Positions 54,301 to 60,300 of a stretch of 64,000 nt of DNA are shown piece by piece. Made by a program: the position numbers. The stretch lies in the NCBI RefSeq assembly GCF_000027125.1, contig NC_017626.1; one strand, 5' to 3'. The DNA comes from Escherichia coli 042 (GTDB taxonomy: Bacteria; Pseudomonadota; Gammaproteobacteria; Enterobacterales; Enterobacteriaceae). Each line of letters opens with the position of its first letter. The stretch's first letter is position 1.

Positions 54301-57300
54301 CCTGGTAACGGGCGTCATCAAGTGCATTATGGCGCTCACCTTCGAATGGAATAGCCGTTCTGGCATCGAAGTCTATGGCTTTCCCCAGCTCAACGATTGT
54401 GCGTACATCGCGATCGTTGTAGTAACGCCACGGGCAGGGGATCCCCTGCCGTTCGTATGAACGGCGCAAAATCGTGTTGTCGAAGTTGGCTCCATTTCCC
54501 CAGACCTGAACAAAAAATTCGCCGGAGTTTTCGTCGATAAATTCCCGCAATTGCAGCAGTGCATCATCTAACGGGATTTCATCGGTCAGAATGGCAGATT
54601 GCGCCTCCCGTGATTGCTTAAGCCACCATTTAATGGTGCCACGATCAATGACTCCGCCAGCAGTATCCATATCGATGGTCTTACTAAATTCCGGCCCCAT
54701 ATCTCCGGTTTGCGGATCGAAAAATATTGCACCTATTGAGATAAGCGGGGCATCGGGATTTTTTCCCATGGTTTCAAGGTCGATCATCATGTGGTGCCAC
54801 ATTCTGCTGGTGGATGTGATAACGTGATGACCGTTCATCGCAATTAAGGGATCTGCCGTCTCGCCAGTTTCACTATCGCTGGCGTGATCCTGAGCGCTAC
54901 CAGCATTCTCCTTGTGTGGATGTTCAGCGCCTTCCATTTCCTTCGGATCATTTTCCTGAACTTCAACCTGATTCTCTTCATCGAATGTTTCCTGGTATGT
55001 TGCGTCACCCATCACCGCGCCACAATCAGGGCAGTTGCCGCCACCGCTTTGACCGCAGGCGGTGCAGACTTTTTCCGGTTCCTGTTGCGCTACTGGCTCA
55101 GGTTGTTTCGTTTCTGGCTCGTTTTGTTGCGTATTTGGGCTGTTTTGTTCCGCTTTCTGGTCGTTCTGTTCCGATTCTTGCTGGTTCTGGTTTACAGAAT
55201 CGTGGGTTTCAATCCCCTTTACCCATTTCGGATCATTCGGGTCGCTAATCCCTGCAACAAATTCTCCGCGAGAGGCAGCAAGCAACTTATCGGCGTCAGG
55301 CTGGCTGATATTGGCTGCCTGCATAATTTTGTTTACTTCGTCAGCGGTAACTTTTACCGGCTCTGGTTGTGCGGTCGTGTCAGATGCACCAGTATTTTGT
55401 TGTGAACCTGAGTACGTGCCGTTTTTACGTGCGAAGTATTCCTCTTTTGTGATTTCCGTAGCTCCCAAGGCTAGTGCTTTTTCCAGACCAGAAAGTTTGT
55501 TTGCGCGACCGTATTTTTCGCCATCCTTGTCGGTGAAGAGGAAGTAGAACGGCCCCTCACGCTCTACAGATGGTTCGACTTCCACTTTGCATTCGGTTTT
55601 TTCGTTGCCCGGAATTGCCGTTTCCACTGCATCAGTTTCTGGTACTGGCGACGAGAGAGTATCAGTTGCGCTCTGATTTCTTCCTTCATCTTCAAACACG
55701 CCCTTTGTAGTCAGGTATTCAGTAATGTATTTGTTCAGTGCCACAGGGTCTTTGTGAATGTCGATCGGACGTTCACGGACAAGGACAAAAATAGTCTGGC
55801 GGTCGTAGCGAAGGGCATCAGGCTGTTTGCGCATTGATGCCGAGATACGCTTCCAGTCTTCGCGGTCGTTGTCGATAACTTCATTTTTTGCCCAGCGATG
55901 GATGCTGCCGTCAATGTTTCCGGCATCCACATCACCAGGCCAGAGAGCGTAGGCCAGTTCGTCATCCAGTGTTTTCCATGTCTGCTTGTATTCGCGATGA
56001 ATGGCAGCAATGACCGGGCTGATTTTTCCTGTTGAATTTTCAGTGTGCTGTTGATTGGTTCTGGCGCGGGCGAGATCAACAACAGACGTGTATTTTCCGG
56101 TTTCCTTGCGTTCACCTTCGCGACGTTTTTTCCAGATGCGCATCTCTGCCTGAATTTCGGGCCATTTGGCACCAGGCTTACATTTATGCTTAACCCACCC
56201 GATGGCATGCAGCTTAAGCTCCGGATACATGGCGTTAACTTCTGGCATTTTCATCAACGCTTCAACGATATGTCCGTCGAATGTTGCCATGTCTTCCTGC
56301 AACAATTCCTGTGCGCTAATAACCATATCAACGGTGATGTTTTCACATGTGTCGAACTTAACCATGACAGCGTTCTGTACTTCAGGGGCCAGCTTGTCAA
56401 AAGTGACGTTCATCGGATCTGATTCAGTCTCAACCGGGACAAAGGAAGCAGATTCCTCATCCCAGCGGTTTTCCTGCATATATTCAGCATCCCAGGAATC
56501 GAGGGCAGGGCGGGGTATACCGGGTTTATCCTCGCAGACAAGAAATTTATAAGCGCAGTCCTGAGCAGCCGGATAATGTTCCAGGAATTGCCAGTGAAAT
56601 TTTGCGCGGGCGCGACGTTCATCACCGGCTTCAATGGCAGTGGCTACAGCGACGGCACCTTCTTCCTTTATTGCCTGTTCGTCCGGAATGGCGGCGCAAA
56701 TAAAGACTTTACTCATTTTGTTTTACCTCATTACAGATTTAAGGGTGAACAAATCCCTGCCATTGCTGGCATATAAAAATGAAACTGGATATTAATTACG
56801 GCGCTGTTTTTAATCCTGCCGGGATTTCGTTATTGTCCATGTGAATAACTTTATCGACCGGATAACAGTTGCCGGGAATTTTCTGTTCCGCTGCGGCAGC
56901 CATGCATTCTTTCATTGAGTTGTACATGCCGGTGATTGCATCAAGCGACTCACCAGTATTGAGATGTACAGTCAGAATGAGTACGAATAATGTGTTCATC
57001 GCCACTCTCCGAAAATACCGAGTTTAAGAAGGGCAATTCTGGAGAGTATGGAATTGTCATTCAGCAGGTAGGGTTCATATTTTCTCATATTGATTGCATC
57101 CTCGGTGAAATCCCTGTTACTGAGCAGAACACCAATATTAAAGCACCCGTCAGACGTATTAACGTTTGGTAGTGACGTTTCCATTATCGCGTCCTCAACA
57201 ATGAATTTTTAGCAATTGCTCCACAGTCATATTTTTAATTGCGCTCCGGTTTACAAGAGTCCATCCTTGTTTCTCCAGATAAAACCGGAAGGTATCCAGG

Positions 57301-60300
57301 GTGCAGACCATTGCGCCGTCAGGAACGGTTTCAGTGAATTTGATATTGCCGTGTTCGTCGAGACGGATAACCAGGGTGCGTCCGTCCCCGTGAATCATTT
57401 TGTCGGGAGACGGGGCGTTATTCTGGCGCAGTTCTGCTTCCATGCGGTCGAACTCAGCAATGTATGCCTCTTTAAATGCAGCGGCTTTTTTGCCAGTGAA
57501 GCCCATCACCAGGAAAACGAAGCCGTTTTTGGTGATTTGGTACATTGGGAGTTTGCGCCCGGTTGAGTCGGTGTATTCGCTTGACACAAAATTGTGCTCA
57601 GTGAATTTTGCTGAACAGTCCAGATTGCGAATTTTATCCAACACTCGTTCGTGGCGTTTGCCAAAGAACTCGGCGATCGCAACAGACGTAGTGACAGCGC
57701 GACCATTTTCGATGGTTACGTCAGGGTGAGAAAGGGTAAGGATAGTAGCCATGATGGCAGCCTCCGCGATGAATTTGATTAACTCACCACCGAGGTTTTC
57801 CACGACCATAAGGGTGGTGAGACGTACAGGGGTGGAAATACCGGTCATCACGGAACCCGGCCAGCCTTGCGGCTGCCCTGCACGCCCCACCATAATGCGA
57901 ATGTGGCTGTGCTTAACGCATAAAAAAACCGCCTGAGCGCGGTTATGCGCCGTGAATGATTTCGGGTTTCCACGCCCGGCACCCGTTTTATGAGGTGCAG
58001 GTGCACTATAATTCCACCCGTTCTGGTTTTCAATAGCTACATTCAACATTTTCTCTACCTTTCATCACCGAAGTGAACTTTGTTGATGCGGTGCCTGGTG
58101 CCTCCAGGTGACGTTAACCAGTTAACAATTAACGTCGGATACAGAGCATTCCCGTTACGCCCGTAAAAGACCGCTTGTTTTAACTGTTCCGCGTGCGCTG
58201 AGCCGCATTCACCGCATCACAAAATTCACTTTAAAAAGGGCGGCAGAGCAGTCACGGAGTAGAACTGATACCGCCAAAAGTCACCAGAAAATTGATAACA
58301 GAGGGCGTTGCAGCGGAGTTGTCACTTAAGCGTATGGTCAACCTGACAACCCGGTGTCCTCAGCGGGGAAGGAATAACCCCGCCATACTTACCGCCGCGC
58401 CATTTCGCGGATTGCCACAACCGGAAGCGCACGGTCGAACTAAATTTAACGACACCGTACAGAGAGACCAATTTCGCCGTGCGCTTTCGCGTTATGCCCT
58501 GACTTTTCAGGGACATATCCTTTCAGTAAACTGTCAGTGCCGGATGCTCACCCGTGTCCGGCGCACGCACTCCACCTGACCCGTGGAGAACTCCTTAATT
58601 ACCAACCCTCAGGAGGGTGAAATGGATAAAAAGCAAATTGAGGCCCTGCAATCTATTATTGAAAAACAAGATGAAGCTATCAGGATTCTTTCATATCGCA
58701 CTGATATGATACTAAATATGCTTTCTGCATTAACGGCTGCGCTTGGTGGTACAAAAACAAACGTATACCGCGAAGTTGTTATTCAACAGATAGATAAATT
58801 TGAAAAAACCATACCAGGTATTAATGCTCATCTTGCAGAACAAGAGAAAGACCATGCTCTTATGGCAATTTCTTCAGTAGCTCTCCCGAAAGTTGAGTAG
58901 TTTTAATTGTTGTTTTGAAATAATCACTGCTTTCACATTTGAGTGATTTCATGGCAATCCAAATGCGGGCCACTGTGCCTGCATTTGGTTCCAGTTGCTG
59001 TAGACGTTTTGCGTCTTCCAAAAGTAAGGCGATAATGTGTTTCAGCTTCTCATCATTTGCTTGATTCTTGTTTTCAGGCGAATTCTGTCCGCCGAATAGG
59101 CGCTTCTCTTCATACAGACCTATAAAGGCACGACGCACGTTACCGGATATAGTATCGATGGTTTCCTTTTCTACAGTACTCAGGTCAAGAGTCGCCAGTT
59201 GAGAGCGAACCACATTCGCTGCCATTTCCTGGAATGGCATTGGTAAATCTTTAAATTCCATTATTAGCCTCGTTGGTTAGCTATTAACGTGGGTATGTAA
59301 CCATTCTGGCAATGCTTAATGCCGCTGCTTTTTCCAGCCTGGTGATATCCTGCTCCAGAGCGGACAGATTTTCAGCCTGCTTAGTCCTGGCTTCATTGGC
59401 CCATTTCAGATCCTGCACTGCATTAATTTTCTGGCGCATCCACTCATAAAGTTCATCATCGGTATAGTCTGGCGCGATGATGACGGGTTCTCGTTTCTGC
59501 ATACTGATTCCTCGCGGTGCTGTTTCGCTTATCAGCCGTTAGATTTTCCCGAACTGGAAAGCGCCTGTTTAAATTCACTGAAGCTGAGAGCTTCTTCGCC
59601 TTCGGCAAGACCATCGAAGTATTCTTCGTAAGCCTTTTCCATGATTGTGTCGAAATCCATATCACTCACCTGAGTTTCTTTCCAGCCAGCGACGGGCACC
59701 ATTTTCGGTTTTAAACGTTTTGCTTTTGGTATACGTCATCGCGGTGAATGTGCCGTCCTGGTTGGGAAACACGCCGTACACCAGAGATTCGTTGTTGCCA
59801 AGCTCGATAGTATCCATGCTGACCTCATTTCCCCTTAACGCCGGGTGGCGGAACTAAAACCTACAGCGCCGTGCTGTTCTTGATAGAAATATTAGTAACG
59901 CGGATATTTTAAGTCAACAGTATGGCGTATGATATTTTTGATTTGGTAACTATGTAAATGTTTTTTCAAGGGAAAAATATTAGTTATACAGCTGATTTGC
60001 AGAAGTTATGGCACAAAAAAACCGACTAAGACGTCGGTTTTTTTGTTGTGGATGGGGTAGTGAGCGGTGGCTACTGGTTACGTTTCTTTAGTGCCAGCAT
60101 GTTCTCGAAGGCTTCCTCGTAGAGCTTGTTTAGTCCACGTAGCTGGTTAAGGAGTTTGGCTTTTTCTGACGCAGGTAGAATCTCGAAGAGGTTAAGTAAC
60201 TCTGCCTGTTCTTCATTGACCAGCCTCCATCCTTTGCCTGAAAAGTTATCATCATAAGTATCTGATGATCTTACATAATTCATTAAGTCTTTAAGGTCTT

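What the first reader, a model, noticed from the sequence alone, without database searches (positions are those of the whole stretch)
56796..59817. dicB-type operon with a DicF sRNA homolog, rearranged relative to Qin
A 53-nt minus-strand sequence at 58238-58290 matches DicF as I recall it at all but 2 positions and ends in a GC stem plus U-run. A 62-aa DicB homolog lies at 56996-57184, and upstream small ORFs match ydfA/ydfB/ydfC in size (51/42/72 aa) and order. Unlike Qin, a Rha-family gene and a roughly 480-bp ORF-poor stretch separate DicF from dicB, and the orphan gene pair separates ydfC from DicF. The two DicF substitutions could alter target pairing.
Basis: partly seen in the sequence, partly recalled or inferred. 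Interest (0 to 1): 0.55.

Follow-up and report, generated by a model that had tools for sequence, protein, structure and literature searches.

The report
DicF-dicB prophage operon with inserts
This is a genuine but ordinary copy of the known prophage operon that makes the cell-division-blocking small RNA DicF and protein DicB; it differs from the E. coli K-12 version by two inserted gene cassettes, one of which is a known type of RNA-controlled antirepressor switch.

Summary
Window 58238-58290(-) is DicF (Rfam 71.5 bits, threshold 48) and differs from K-12 DicF only at G12U and U29C. The 62-aa ORF is DicB (NCBIfam 103.4 bits, cutoff 100; 58% identical to K-12). ydfA, ydfB and ydfC are 94-98% identical.

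The locus is collinear with the Qin dicBF operon, not shuffled. It carries two extra cassettes: a 656-bp convergent gene pair of unknown function, and an 864-bp module between the DicF spacer and dicB.

The "ORF-poor stretch" is not empty. It holds the Qin-type spacer, a promoter-like site, an IsrK-family RNA and a C4-family antisense RNA. The C4 loop pairs with the ribosome-binding site of the Rha gene, with 7 of 11 pairs covarying across five specificities. This is a P1 immI / P4 CI / Gifsy-1 IsrK-type antirepressor switch.

None of this is rare. DicF-like sequence is in 4027 of 5426 complete E. coli genomes, and this exact allele is the best match in 89 records. The DicF-Rha-dicB block is in 385 genomes and the whole arrangement in 35.

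Predicted ftsZ and pykA pairing is kept. G12U weakens only the predicted xylR pairing.

Verdict: a new member of a known kind, of low interest.

The parts
60071..60532 (-). 153-aa HTH repressor gene with DicA-like architecture. It has a different immunity specificity from Qin. It is followed by a hairpin plus T-run at about 60018-60050.
   Evidence: NCBIfam DicA model: 35 bits, E = 1e-8, below the cutoff, covering aa 18-152. PHROG repressor families match. There is no DNA homology to Qin upstream of 59855. The hairpin was read from the sequence.
59889..59958 (-). Candidate early-left (dicBp-equivalent) promoters: TTTACA-18-TATCAT and TTGACT-17-TAATAT.
   Evidence: Consensus scan gives 10/12 and 9/12 matches. 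The position is analogous to dicBp upstream of ydfA. Function was not tested.
59662..59817 (-). ydfA homolog (51 aa, DUF1391)
   Evidence: 50/51 identical to K-12 YdfA. Matches phrog_751. PGAP annotates the same gene in L001.
59532..59660 (-). ydfB homolog (42 aa)
   Evidence: 40/42 identical to K-12 YdfB. PGAP calls it 'protein YdfB'.
59284..59502 (-). ydfC homolog (72 aa)
   Evidence: 68/72 identical to K-12 YdfC. PGAP calls it 'protein YdfC'.
58608..59263 (.). Cassette 1, absent from Qin. It holds a convergent pair of genes of unknown function: a 133-aa ORF at 58860-59261(-) and a 105-aa ORF at 58583-58900(+) (92 aa from the PGAP start). The cassette is AT-rich.
   Evidence: Window-only segment in blastn against Qin; junction sequences. 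GC is 0.34-0.40. The ORFs match phrog_1363 and phrog_18692, both of unknown function. No Pfam, NCBIfam or PADLOC hit. A similar convergent pair sits in the same slot in O157 PPompW prophages.
58291..58607 (-). Conserved untranslated leader upstream of DicF. It includes the region that corresponds to the 190-nt RNase III precursor (58238-58427).
   Evidence: 89.8% identical to Qin over the block 58607-58074. The precursor region is 185/190 identical. The processing scheme is taken from PMC10448788.
58238..58290 (-). DicF sRNA, allele G12U/U29C, with an intrinsic terminator stem and a T-run at 58233-58237.
   Evidence: Rfam RF00039, 71.5 bits against a gathering score of 48. Two differences from K-12. 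Fold. The exact allele is the best match in 89 E. coli records.
58074..58237 (-). DicF-dicB spacer, homologous to Qin.
   Evidence: blastn block and alignment. There is a sub-threshold Rfam STnc100 match at 35.6 bits against a gathering score of 47.
57210..58073 (-). Cassette 2, absent from Qin: promoter, IsrK, C4 and the Rha gene.
   Evidence: Window-only segment with an 8-bp overlap (microhomology) at the junctions.
58005..58033 (-). Sigma-70-like promoter TTGAAA-17-TATAGT. It places the transcription start at 57998, the first base of the IsrK match.
   Evidence: Consensus scan, 10/12 matches. Spacing was read from the sequence. It is analogous to PisrK of Gifsy-1 (PMC4825925).
57922..57998 (-). 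IsrK-family RNA with its terminator. It carries the C4 target copies a1 (57967-57973) and b1 (57950-57959).
   Evidence: Rfam RF01394, 67.7 bits against a gathering score of 50. Terminator at 57944-57927. Covariation of a1/b1 with C4.
57810..57897 (-). C4-family antisense RNA. Its loop b' is at 57845-57855 and its junction a' at 57832-57838.
   Evidence: Rfam RF01695, 81.9 bits against a gathering score of 45. Fold -47.3 kcal/mol.
57760..57803 (-). C4 target sites a2 (57797-57803) and b2 (57762-57772). b2 overlaps the GGAGG Shine-Dalgarno (57761-57765) of the Rha start codon at 57752.
   Evidence: Duplex b':b2 is -19.3 kcal/mol. On six copies, 11 pairs are 100% paired, 7 pairs change on both sides, and the slid controls pair in 39-54% of cells.
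57195..57752 (-). Rha-family regulator gene, a putative antirepressor. The most likely coding region is 185 aa. PGAP-style calls extend it to 58049 (284 aa).
   Evidence: TIGR02681 at 106.5 bits and Pfam Phage_pRha, aa 120-204 of the long ORF. PHROG anti-repressor families match. Third-codon-position excess appears only after ATG 57752.
56996..57184 (-). dicB homolog (62 aa)
   Evidence: NF049927, 103.4 bits against a cutoff of 100. 36/62 identical to K-12 DicB. phrog_1251 matches full length.
56796..56999 (-). ydfD-like gene (DUF1482, 67 aa). Its start overlaps the dicB stop (ATGA).
   Evidence: Alignment to K-12 YdfD. Matches phrog_1092. PGAP annotates it as DUF1482.
52824..56716 (-). Rest of the left arm: an intact 823-aa exonuclease (54245-56716, the full-length ydfE counterpart), excisionase (53932-54180) and integrase (52824-53954). 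It abuts ompW (52140-52778, + strand).
   Evidence: phrog_2082 exonuclease matches full length. PGAP names are from L001. OmpW equivalog scores 402 bits. Homology to Qin ydfE runs up to the IS2 insertion.

Best explanation
**What it is.** This is the repressor-controlled early-left operon of a lambdoid prophage integrated next to ompW. It is homologous to, and collinear with, the dicBF operon of the K-12 Qin prophage. The order is ydfA, ydfB, ydfC, [cassette 1], leader, DicF, spacer, [cassette 2: promoter, IsrK, C4, rha], dicB, ydfD, exonuclease, xis, int.

**How DicF and DicB work (inferred from K-12).** When the adjacent DicA-like repressor is inactivated, a polycistronic transcript is made. 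RNase III and RNase E cut DicF out of the conserved leader, and its own terminator forms the 3' end. DicF then base-pairs with the ftsZ ribosome-binding region, and also with pykA and manX, to block cell division. DicB inhibits division at the protein level.

**How it differs from Qin (shown).** The difference is ordinary lambdoid mosaicism. There are two cassette insertions or deletions at sharp junctions and a swapped immunity region.

**Cassette 2 (partly shown, partly inferred).** It is a P1 immI / P4 CI / Gifsy-1 IsrK-type riboregulated antirepressor module. It has its own promoter-like site. The C4-family RNA made from the transcript pairs, through its a' and b' elements, with a2 and b2 across the Rha Shine-Dalgarno. 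This keeps the antirepressor untranslated. Pairing with a1/b1 in IsrK offers a competing or decoy interaction.

**Shown versus inferred.** Shown: the sequence identities, the covariance-model hits, the junctions, the covariation and the population frequencies. Inferred from the K-12, P1, P4 and Gifsy-1 literature: RNA processing, target repression, antirepressor activity and the polarity on dicB.
For: - **Family hits.** DicF, IsrK and C4 covariance-model hits are all above gathering thresholds. DicB is above the curated cutoff.
- **Collinearity.** Three collinear blocks are 96%, 90% and 87% identical to Qin, with only two window-only segments and defined junctions.
- **Conservation.** The precursor region is 185/190 identical.
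- **ftsZ pairing kept.** DicF nt 25-52 pair with ftsZ -28..-1; duplex energy is -36.9 vs -38.5 kcal/mol for K-12.
- **Promoter-like site.** Its spacing puts the start on the first IsrK base.
- **Covariation.** b':b2 is 100% paired with 7 of 11 pairs changed on both sides. b1 and a1 also covary with C4.
- **Coding signal.** Codon periodicity begins only at ATG 57752.
- **Recurrence.** The same architecture is in 35 complete genomes (whole 3 kb) and 385 genomes (DicF to dicB block).
- **Phage context.** The complete deposited genome of phage Tritos carries CI, ydfABC-sized ORFs, DicF, dicB, ydfD and exonuclease in this position.
- **Mechanism from the literature.** PMC10448788, PMC5069750 and PMC4825925.
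Against: - No expression data exist for this locus.
- DicB is only 58% identical to K-12 DicB and clears the curated cutoff by only 3 bits. Its C-terminal half has diverged, so the MinC-dependent activity is assumed.
- The repressor is only distantly DicA-like.
- Transcripts from the operon promoter must pass both the DicF and the IsrK terminators to reach rha and dicB, so co-expression of DicF and DicB is less certain here than in Qin.
- The frame upstream of ATG 57752 is open in all six copies examined. Gifsy-1 orf45, the counterpart of the C4 region, is translated. Some translation through the RNA region therefore cannot be excluded.
Confidence: 0.85

Rival explanations
1. The stretch between the spacer and the Rha domain is protein-coding. 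On this reading the gene is a 284-aa Ash-Rha two-domain regulator, as PGAP annotates it and as Pfam's Phage_ASH hit suggests, and the IsrK/C4 hits are incidental.
For: - The frame is open from 58049 in all six homologous copies, including across a 3-nt indel.
- Pfam Phage_ASH matches aa 14-109 with E = 3.5e-16.
- phrog_995 matches full length.
- PGAP annotates 284-aa and 383-aa versions.
- Gifsy-1 orf45 is translated.
Against: - Substitutions show no third-position excess upstream of ATG 57752 (16/18/20, 18/16/18, 32/30/26) but a strong one downstream (9/7/25, 12/6/29).
- The variable positions are exactly the three-way covarying a and b elements.
- A promoter-like site and an intrinsic terminator lie inside the supposed ORF.
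- The Phage_ASH match in P4 falls on the conceptual 137-aa 'cI' ORF. That ORF overlaps the C4-family hit and is not the epsilon protein.
- The Gifsy-1 authors report nucleotide but not amino-acid conservation of orf45.
Confidence: 0.12
2. The two DicF substitutions retarget the sRNA, so this allele has a materially different regulon from K-12 DicF.
For: - G12U removes the central G-C of the predicted 12-bp duplex between the 5' tail and xylR +9..+20. The tail-only energy goes from -16.7 to -11.1 kcal/mol.
- The 5' end is the experimentally defined xylR-pairing region (PMC5069750).
- U29 is a conserved position in the Rfam consensus.
- Another natural allele (L007) has an entirely different 5' tail.
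Against: - The core pairings with ftsZ and pykA are unchanged or within about 1-2 kcal/mol.
- U29C simply swaps a U-A or U-G pair for a C-G pair with ftsZ -6.
- The allele is the best match in 89 records, and U29C is shared with a further allele, so it looks like ordinary polymorphism.
- No new target was predicted or tested. The host's own xylR sequence is not in the window.
Confidence: 0.2
3. The locus is a decaying, silent remnant, and DicF and dicB here are non-functional relics.
For: In K-12 the operon sits in a defective prophage and is silent under standard conditions (PMC5069750). The C-terminal half of DicB has diverged.
Against: - Every element is intact: the DicF stem and terminator, a 97%-identical precursor region, and all small ORFs.
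- The 823-aa exonuclease is intact here but is a pseudogene interrupted by IS2 in K-12. The xis and int genes are also present.
- The arrangement is kept at 94-99% identity in 35 genomes.
- A complete deposited phage genome (Tritos) carries the same operon.
Confidence: 0.08
4. The arrangement is an assembly chimera.
For: None found.
Against: The full 3-kb arrangement is present as a single aligned piece in 18 of the listed complete genomes from unrelated sources, and at 80% coverage or more in 35 genomes. The junctions are clean and carry microhomology.
Confidence: 0.01

Closest known systems
dicBF operon of the Qin cryptic prophage, E. coli K-12 (ydfABC-dicF-dicB-ydfDE)
   Same: Same genes in the same order and orientation, 87-96% identical in DNA in three collinear blocks. 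Same leader and precursor region (185/190). DicF differs at 2 of 53 nt. The repressor gene lies upstream on the same strand.
   Different: - Two extra cassettes (656 bp and 864 bp).
- A different immunity region and promoter: no homology upstream of 59855, and YdaS/YdaT-type divergent genes instead of dicC.
- DicB is only 58% identical.
- The exonuclease, xis and int genes are intact here, whereas Qin has pseudogenes interrupted by IS2.
dicBF-type left operons of sequenced phages and prophages (phage Tritos, mEp460_ev081, the PPompW prophages found in the Stx2 phage records)
   Same: The operon occupies the same immunity-adjacent position, with exonuclease, xis and int downstream. PPompW prophages sit at the same ompW site and carry a similar convergent gene pair between ydfC and DicF. 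Tritos has DicF annotated.
   Different: None of the 50,697 phage records covers 80% or more of this 3-kb arrangement; the best covers 43%. The ones examined carry the K-12 DicF allele, or C53G in Tritos, and lack the IsrK-C4-rha cassette.
Gifsy-1 isrK-orf45-anrP locus (Salmonella)
   Same: A promoter-like site, an IsrK RNA with a leaky terminator, a conserved region and then an antirepressor-like gene. The first AUG of orf45 corresponds to window 57893. The authors noted an orf45-anrP fusion (287 aa) in S. dysenteriae, like the 284-aa open frame here.
   Different: It is embedded in a dicBF operon rather than next to antQ. The orf45 equivalent is in frame with rha rather than overlapping it as AUGA. 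Whether IsrK activates in trans, as in the Gifsy-1 model, is untested here.
P1/P7 immI (c4-icd-ant) and the P4 seqA-CI RNA-seqC immunity system
   Same: A C4-family RNA flanked by upstream (a1, b1) and downstream (a2, b2) complementary sites. The downstream site covers a ribosome-binding site. Specificity covaries in all three elements. P4 gives the same pair of Rfam hits, isrK and C4.
   Different: There is no icd-like gene, and the target RBS belongs directly to a Rha-family gene. The module sits inside a lambdoid early-left operon, upstream of dicB.

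Membership tests
DicF sRNA (Rfam RF00039) | Covariance-model score at or above the gathering threshold over the full model | tested here: met
   71.5 bits against 48, model positions 1-52 of 52. K-12 DicF scores 76.7 bits in the same test.
DicF sRNA (Rfam RF00039) | Single-stranded 5' tail, one stem-loop, and a GC-rich terminator stem followed by a U-run | tested here: met
   MFE fold matches the K-12 architecture at -15.3 kcal/mol. TTTTT follows. A related allele (L007) shows compensatory changes in the stem.
DicF sRNA (Rfam RF00039) | Complementarity of the loop and 3' region to the ftsZ ribosome-binding region | tested here: met
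   Nt 25-52 pair with ftsZ -28..-1. Duplex energy is -36.9 vs -38.5 kcal/mol for K-12. The K-12 ftsZ leader was used.
DicF sRNA (Rfam RF00039) | [quoted passage not shown] | not testable with these tools
   Only the conservation of the precursor region (185/190) and of the sequence at the 5' cleavage site could be shown.
DicB (NCBIfam NF049927) | Score at or above the curated cutoff, about 62 aa | tested here: met
   103.4 bits against 100, residues 1-61 of 62. The margin is narrow.
DicB (NCBIfam NF049927) | MinC-dependent inhibition of cell division | not testable with these tools
   58% identity to K-12 DicB, concentrated in the N-terminal half.
Qin-type dicBF operon | Gene order ydfA-ydfB-ydfC-dicF-dicB-ydfD-ydfE on one strand, downstream of the repressor gene | tested here: met
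   Collinear blocks with two added cassettes.
Qin-type dicBF operon | DicA/DicC immunity pair and the dicBp operator region | tested here: not met
   No DNA homology upstream of 59855. The repressor scores 35 bits against the DicA model (cutoff 101). PGAP annotates the divergent genes as YdaS/YdaT-type. It has the same layout but a different immunity.
C4 antisense RNA / immI-type control (Rfam RF01695) | Covariance-model score at or above the gathering threshold | tested here: met
   81.9 bits against 45.
C4 antisense RNA / immI-type control (Rfam RF01695) | Elements a' and b' complementary to a1/b1 upstream and to a2/b2 downstream, the latter covering a ribosome-binding site | tested here: met
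   b':b2 has 11 pairs, 100% paired, 7 covarying, against 39-54% for the slid controls. a1/b1 pair in 92% of cells, with 10 pairs changed on both sides. b2 overlaps the GGAGG of ATG 57752.
C4 antisense RNA / immI-type control (Rfam RF01695) | Controls an antirepressor through translational block and Rho-dependent polarity | not testable with these tools
   The downstream gene is Rha-family with PHROG anti-repressor hits. Its activity is unknown.
IsrK (Rfam RF01394) | Covariance-model score at or above the gathering threshold, with its own promoter and terminator, upstream of an antirepressor-like gene | tested here: met
   67.7 bits against 50. The promoter-like site puts the start at 57998, and the terminator is at 57944-57927. 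The promoter and terminator are consensus matches only.

The most novel reading that the evidence does not exclude
The IsrK/C4-gated Rha antirepressor nested between DicF and dicB turns the operon into a self-reinforcing switch. A promoter that does not depend on the prophage repressor (PisrK) would give rha and dicB a second, RNA-gated route of expression. Once Rha is translated, it would inactivate the DicA-like repressor and fire the whole DicF/DicB division block and prophage induction. On this reading, cell-division inhibition and DicB-type phage exclusion are coupled to an antisense-RNA specificity code rather than to the SOS response.
Probability: 0.2. Interest if true: 0.45.

Novelty: new member of a known kind. 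Interest (0 to 1): 0.22.

Why it matters
Mostly it does not. DicF, DicB and their operon are well studied, and variable dicBF loci in different prophages are already published (PMC5069750).

Three modest points have practical value:

1. **DicF is under-annotated.** No feature was annotated under any of the twelve RefSeq DicF matches listed. Copy number and allele diversity of this division and virulence regulator are therefore invisible in standard annotation.
2. **Natural alleles vary in the 5' tail and keep the ftsZ-pairing core.** This suggests which targets are under selection.
3. **The Rha "N-terminal domain" behaves as RNA.** This affects the annotation of Rha/'ash family' proteins and the use of Pfam Phage_ASH (PF10554) as a marker for P4-like satellites.

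Tried and rejected
- **Function of the gene pair in cassette 1.** NCBIfam, PADLOC and Pfam found nothing for the 133-aa and 105-aa ORFs, and PHROGs only gave families of unknown function. I ran no further search on them.
- **Direction of the cassette 2 indel.** A tblastn of the Rha C-terminal 93 aa against the phage collection, meant to show whether Qin lost the cassette, found no match. K-12 does keep the last 15 nt of rha (AAAATTCATTGTTGA) in front of dicB. This hints at a deletion in Qin but does not prove it.
- **A supposed DicB pseudogene.** PGAP annotates a 'DicB pseudogene, missing C-terminus' between DicF and rha in a near-identical genome. Translating it shows only the conserved spacer, with no resemblance to DicB. 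I rejected it as evidence that the cassette split a dicB gene.
- **EHEC DicF paper.** The paper on the four EHEC DicF copies (PMC6628830) is not held, so I could not compare the published alleles.
- **Extra structure in the precursor.** The 198-nt precursor region folds no better than shuffles (z = -1.7), so no extra structured element is claimed there.
- **Sub-threshold Rfam hits.** STnc100, STnc370, IS128 and FuFi-1 were not pursued.

Full report

Yes. A scan of the whole window against Rfam places DicF (RF00039) at 58238-58289 on the minus strand. The match covers the full model at 71.5 bits against a gathering score of 48 (E = 9e-14; alignment). I fetched the K-12 Qin region and compared the 53-nt RNAs directly. 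They differ at exactly two positions, G12U and U29C. The stem-loop is retained (-15.3 vs -15.9 kcal/mol) and is followed by TTTTT.

The 62-aa ORF at 56996-57184(-) scores 103.4 bits against NCBIfam's DicB model, whose curated cutoff is 100. It is 36/62 identical to K-12 DicB, with most identity in the N-terminal half. The ydfA, ydfB and ydfC products are 50/51, 40/42 and 68/72 identical to their K-12 counterparts. PGAP names them the same way in a genome that is 99.1% identical over the region.

**2. What "rearranged relative to Qin" amounts to.**

blastn of the Qin locus against the window gives three collinear blocks:

| Qin locus (L002) | Window | Identity | Content |
|---|---|---|---|
| 2970-3562 | 59855-59264 | 96.3% | ydfABC |
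| 3563-4092 | 58607-58074 | 89.8% | untranslated leader, DicF, DicF-dicB spacer |
| 4085-5345 | 57209-55950 | 87.2% | dicB, ydfD, ydfE up to the K-12 IS2 |

Nothing is inverted or reordered. The window simply has two extra segments.

*Cassette 1 (59263-58608, 656 bp).*
- It sits just after the ydfC stop, and homology resumes at ...GTAATTAAGGAGTTCTCCACGG.
- It carries a 133-aa ORF on the operon strand and a convergent 105-aa ORF (92 aa by the PGAP start) on the other strand.
- It is AT-rich, with GC 0.34-0.40.
- Its products match only PHROG families of unknown function. They have no Pfam, NCBIfam or PADLOC match.
- A similar convergent pair sits in the same slot in the PPompW prophages found in the Stx2 phage records.

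*Cassette 2 (58073-57210, 864 bp).*
- It lies between the spacer and the dicB ribosome-binding site.
- The two junctions share an imperfect AAAnTTCAyT motif.
- K-12 retains the last 15 nt of the rha reading frame in front of dicB. Qin may therefore be the deleted form, but I could not establish the direction.

*Immunity region.*
- Upstream of 59855 there is no homology to Qin.
- The repressor (153 aa, 60071-60532) is only distantly DicA-like (35 bits).
- PGAP annotates the divergent genes as YdaS/YdaT-type.
- This is a different immunity in the same layout.

*Downstream.*
- The left arm continues with an intact 823-aa exonuclease, excisionase and integrase.
- It ends next to ompW (equivalog, 402 bits).

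**3. The "ORF-poor stretch" is an RNA control module.**

The roughly 480 bp between DicF and the Rha start codon consists of two parts. The first is the 164-bp Qin-type spacer. The second is about 320 bp in which Rfam finds two further families above threshold:
- IsrK (RF01394) at 57922-57998, 67.7 bits against 50.
- C4 antisense RNA (RF01695) at 57810-57897, 81.9 bits against 45.

A sigma-70-like site, TTGAAA-17-TATAGT at 58033-58005, places a transcription start on the first IsrK nucleotide. IsrK ends in an intrinsic terminator at 57944-57927.

The C4 loop (b', 57845-57855) is complementary to 57762-57772. That target overlaps the GGAGG eight bases upstream of ATG 57752 (-19.3 kcal/mol). It is also complementary to a site inside IsrK. 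A second element (a', UUUCCAC) matches GUGGAAA both upstream, in IsrK, and downstream.

I collected five further copies of the module from other E. coli prophages and an Stx2a phage and aligned all six copies. They represent five different loop sequences.
- In each copy, the loop, the upstream site and the downstream site change together.
- For the C4-to-downstream pairing, the b':b2 helix has 11 of 11 pairs formed in every sequence, and 7 of those pairs change on both sides. The a' and b' helices together pair in 96% of cells, against 39-54% for the slid controls.
- The pairing with the upstream sites is similar, at 92% paired with 10 pairs changed on both sides.

This is the architecture described for P1/P7 c4-icd-ant (as I recall from the P1/P7 literature). 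P4 gives the same pair of Rfam hits, isrK and C4. It is also the locus studied as isrK-orf45-anrP in Gifsy-1 (PMC4825925).

**4. Where the Rha gene starts.**

PGAP-style annotation calls a 284-aa ORF from 58049. Pfam finds a Phage_ASH 'domain' at aa 14-109 in front of the Rha domain at aa 120-204. Across the six copies the frame is indeed open.

The substitution pattern argues against coding. Between the IsrK start and ATG 57752, differences are spread evenly over codon positions (for example 16/18/20, 18/16/18, 32/30/26). After ATG 57752 they concentrate at third positions (9/7/25, 12/6/29). Together with the internal promoter-like site, the internal terminator and the covariation, this makes 57752 the most likely start (185 aa).

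A side check supports this.
- The window's 'Ash' region aligns with the 137-aa ORF that the P4 record labels 'cI gene product' (E = 2e-15). It does not align with P4 epsilon.
- That P4 ORF carries the PF10554 match and overlaps the C4-family hit.
- Epsilon belongs to a different Pfam family.
- The Gifsy-1 authors likewise reported that orf45 is conserved in nucleotides but not in amino acids, and that it is fused to anrP in S. dysenteriae.

**5. Do the two DicF substitutions matter?**

I used the K-12 target leaders.
- *ftsZ.* The core interaction (DicF nt 25-52 with ftsZ -28..-1) is retained. U29C replaces a U-A or U-G pair with a C-G pair at ftsZ -6. The total duplex energy changes from -38.5 to -36.9 kcal/mol.
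- *pykA.* The predicted pairing through the loop is unchanged (-22.3 vs -21.4 kcal/mol).
- *manX.* It pairs with the 3' end of DicF (PMC5861419). I did not model it.
- *xylR.* This is the one predicted effect. K-12 DicF nt 5-16 form 12 contiguous pairs with xylR +9..+20. This agrees with the experimentally defined role of the 5' end (PMC5069750). G12U removes the central G-C pair, and the tail-only energy goes from -16.7 to -11.1 kcal/mol.

These are predictions only.

Natural alleles show the same pattern. Another architecture-sharing copy (L007) also has U29C, has compensatory changes in the terminator stem and has a completely different 5' tail. PPompW and mEp460_ev081 carry the K-12 allele. 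The 5' tail thus looks like the evolvable part and the ftsZ-pairing core the constrained part.

**6. How common is it?**

- DicF-like sequence is found in 4027 of 5426 complete E. coli genomes, with up to 7 copies per genome.
- This exact 53-mer is the best match in 89 records.
- The contiguous DicF, spacer, IsrK, C4, rha, dicB block is present at 80% coverage or more in 385 genomes.
- The full 3-kb arrangement, with both cassettes, is in 35 genomes at 94-99% identity.
- No deposited phage genome covers more than 43% of the arrangement. Sequenced phages such as Tritos (with DicF annotated), mEp460_ev081 and the PPompW prophages carry Qin-like versions of the operon in the same genomic position.
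- Variable dicBF loci in different prophages, and multiple copies in O157 strains, are already published (PMC5069750; PMC7873438).
- I found no paper that describes DicF and IsrK/C4 in one operon. The seven papers that mention both DicF and IsrK were judged from their titles and abstracts only.

**7. Most likely mechanism.**

*Shown:* sequence-level membership of DicF, DicB, IsrK and C4; collinearity with Qin; the two cassettes and their junctions; the covarying RNA-RNA complementarity over the Rha ribosome-binding site.

*Inferred from K-12 work (PMC10448788; PMC5069750):*
- The operon is silent under the adjacent repressor.
- DicF blocks ftsZ translation, and DicB blocks division.

*Inferred from P1, P4 and Gifsy-1:*
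- C4 keeps Rha untranslated, which should also be polar on dicB.
- IsrK, through a1/b1, competes for C4 or remodels the leader.
- Rha, once made, acts as an antirepressor.

Here dicB lies behind two terminators (DicF and IsrK) and a translationally gated gene. DicB expression is therefore probably more tightly gated than in Qin, and it may also be driven from the internal promoter. This is untested.

**8. Verdict.**

What is there is a recurrent mosaic variant of a well-known prophage operon, assembled from known modules. Novelty: a new member of a known kind. Interest is low (0.22). The most useful by-products are annotation-level. DicF is not annotated under any of the RefSeq matches listed. 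The 'Ash domain' in front of Rha genes behaves as the conceptual translation of the IsrK/C4 riboregulator.

Noticed in passing
window 57752-58049 (-); L013 (phage P4) 8168-8584: Pfam Phage_ASH (PF10554), and with it PGAP's 'ash family protein' naming and the N-terminal roughly 100 aa of many annotated Rha proteins, coincides with the IsrK + C4 RNA genes. The region shows no codon periodicity but strong RNA covariation. In P4 the PF10554 match falls on the conceptual 137-aa 'cI' ORF, which overlaps the C4-family hit, and not on epsilon. Epsilon is Pfam PF25738. At least one published satellite-detection scheme uses PF10554 as its 'epsilon' marker (PMC8628076).
   Followed up: yes
L004 1847-2035 and 2503-2691: One E. 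coli prophage carries two tandem IsrK-C4 modules with different a/b specificities. Each sits in front of its own Rha-like or 'ash family' ORF, downstream of a third Rha gene.
   Followed up: partly
L005 and L006 2141-3295 (Stx2a phage Stx2a_1447 and an E. coli prophage): In these phages the same IsrK-C4-Rha module sits in the rightward operon, between cII and the replication genes. It is annotated there as a single 383-aa 'antirepressor' whose ORF overlaps the end of the cII gene. The module is thus portable between the left and right early operons.
   Followed up: partly
E. coli RefSeq genomes, hits H31-H42: No feature is annotated under any of the twelve DicF matches listed. Only K-12 and phage Tritos, of the records examined, annotate DicF.
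   Followed up: no
L001 5651-5734 (equivalent to window about 58084-58167): PGAP annotates a 'DicB, incomplete, missing C-terminus' pseudogene in the DicF-dicB spacer. Its translation (VLWVDSLYPALIVNWLTSPGGTRHRINK) does not resemble DicB, and the same spacer precedes dicB in K-12. It looks like an artefact of N-terminally over-extended DicB reference proteins.
   Followed up: yes
L007 2489-2541: This is a more divergent natural DicF allele (61.1 bits). It has compensatory changes in the terminator stem (C18-G50 to U-A; U21-G47 to C-G), the same U29C, and a completely different 5' tail (CCAUGUGUAGUC...). Its operon lacks ydfB and ydfC.
   Followed up: partly
window 58079-58226 (-): A sub-threshold Rfam match to the Salmonella sRNA family STnc100 (35.6 bits against 47, E = 3e-5) lies in the conserved DicF-dicB spacer. 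The spacer is also present in K-12.
   Followed up: no
window 54245-56716 (-): The 823-aa exonuclease is intact here. Its K-12 counterpart, ydfE, is a pseudogene truncated by IS2. With xis and int also present, this prophage's left arm is less decayed than Qin's.
   Followed up: partly
window 10650-10715 and 11186-11251 (+); 27383-27943 (-): Two rdlD-family antitoxin RNAs (ldr/rdl repeats), and two RtT elements with two tRNA hits between 27383 and 27943. I read these as ordinary E. coli chromosomal landmarks (the tRNA/RtT cluster looks like tyrTV, from memory). They place the prophage in the ompW region of the chromosome.
   Followed up: no
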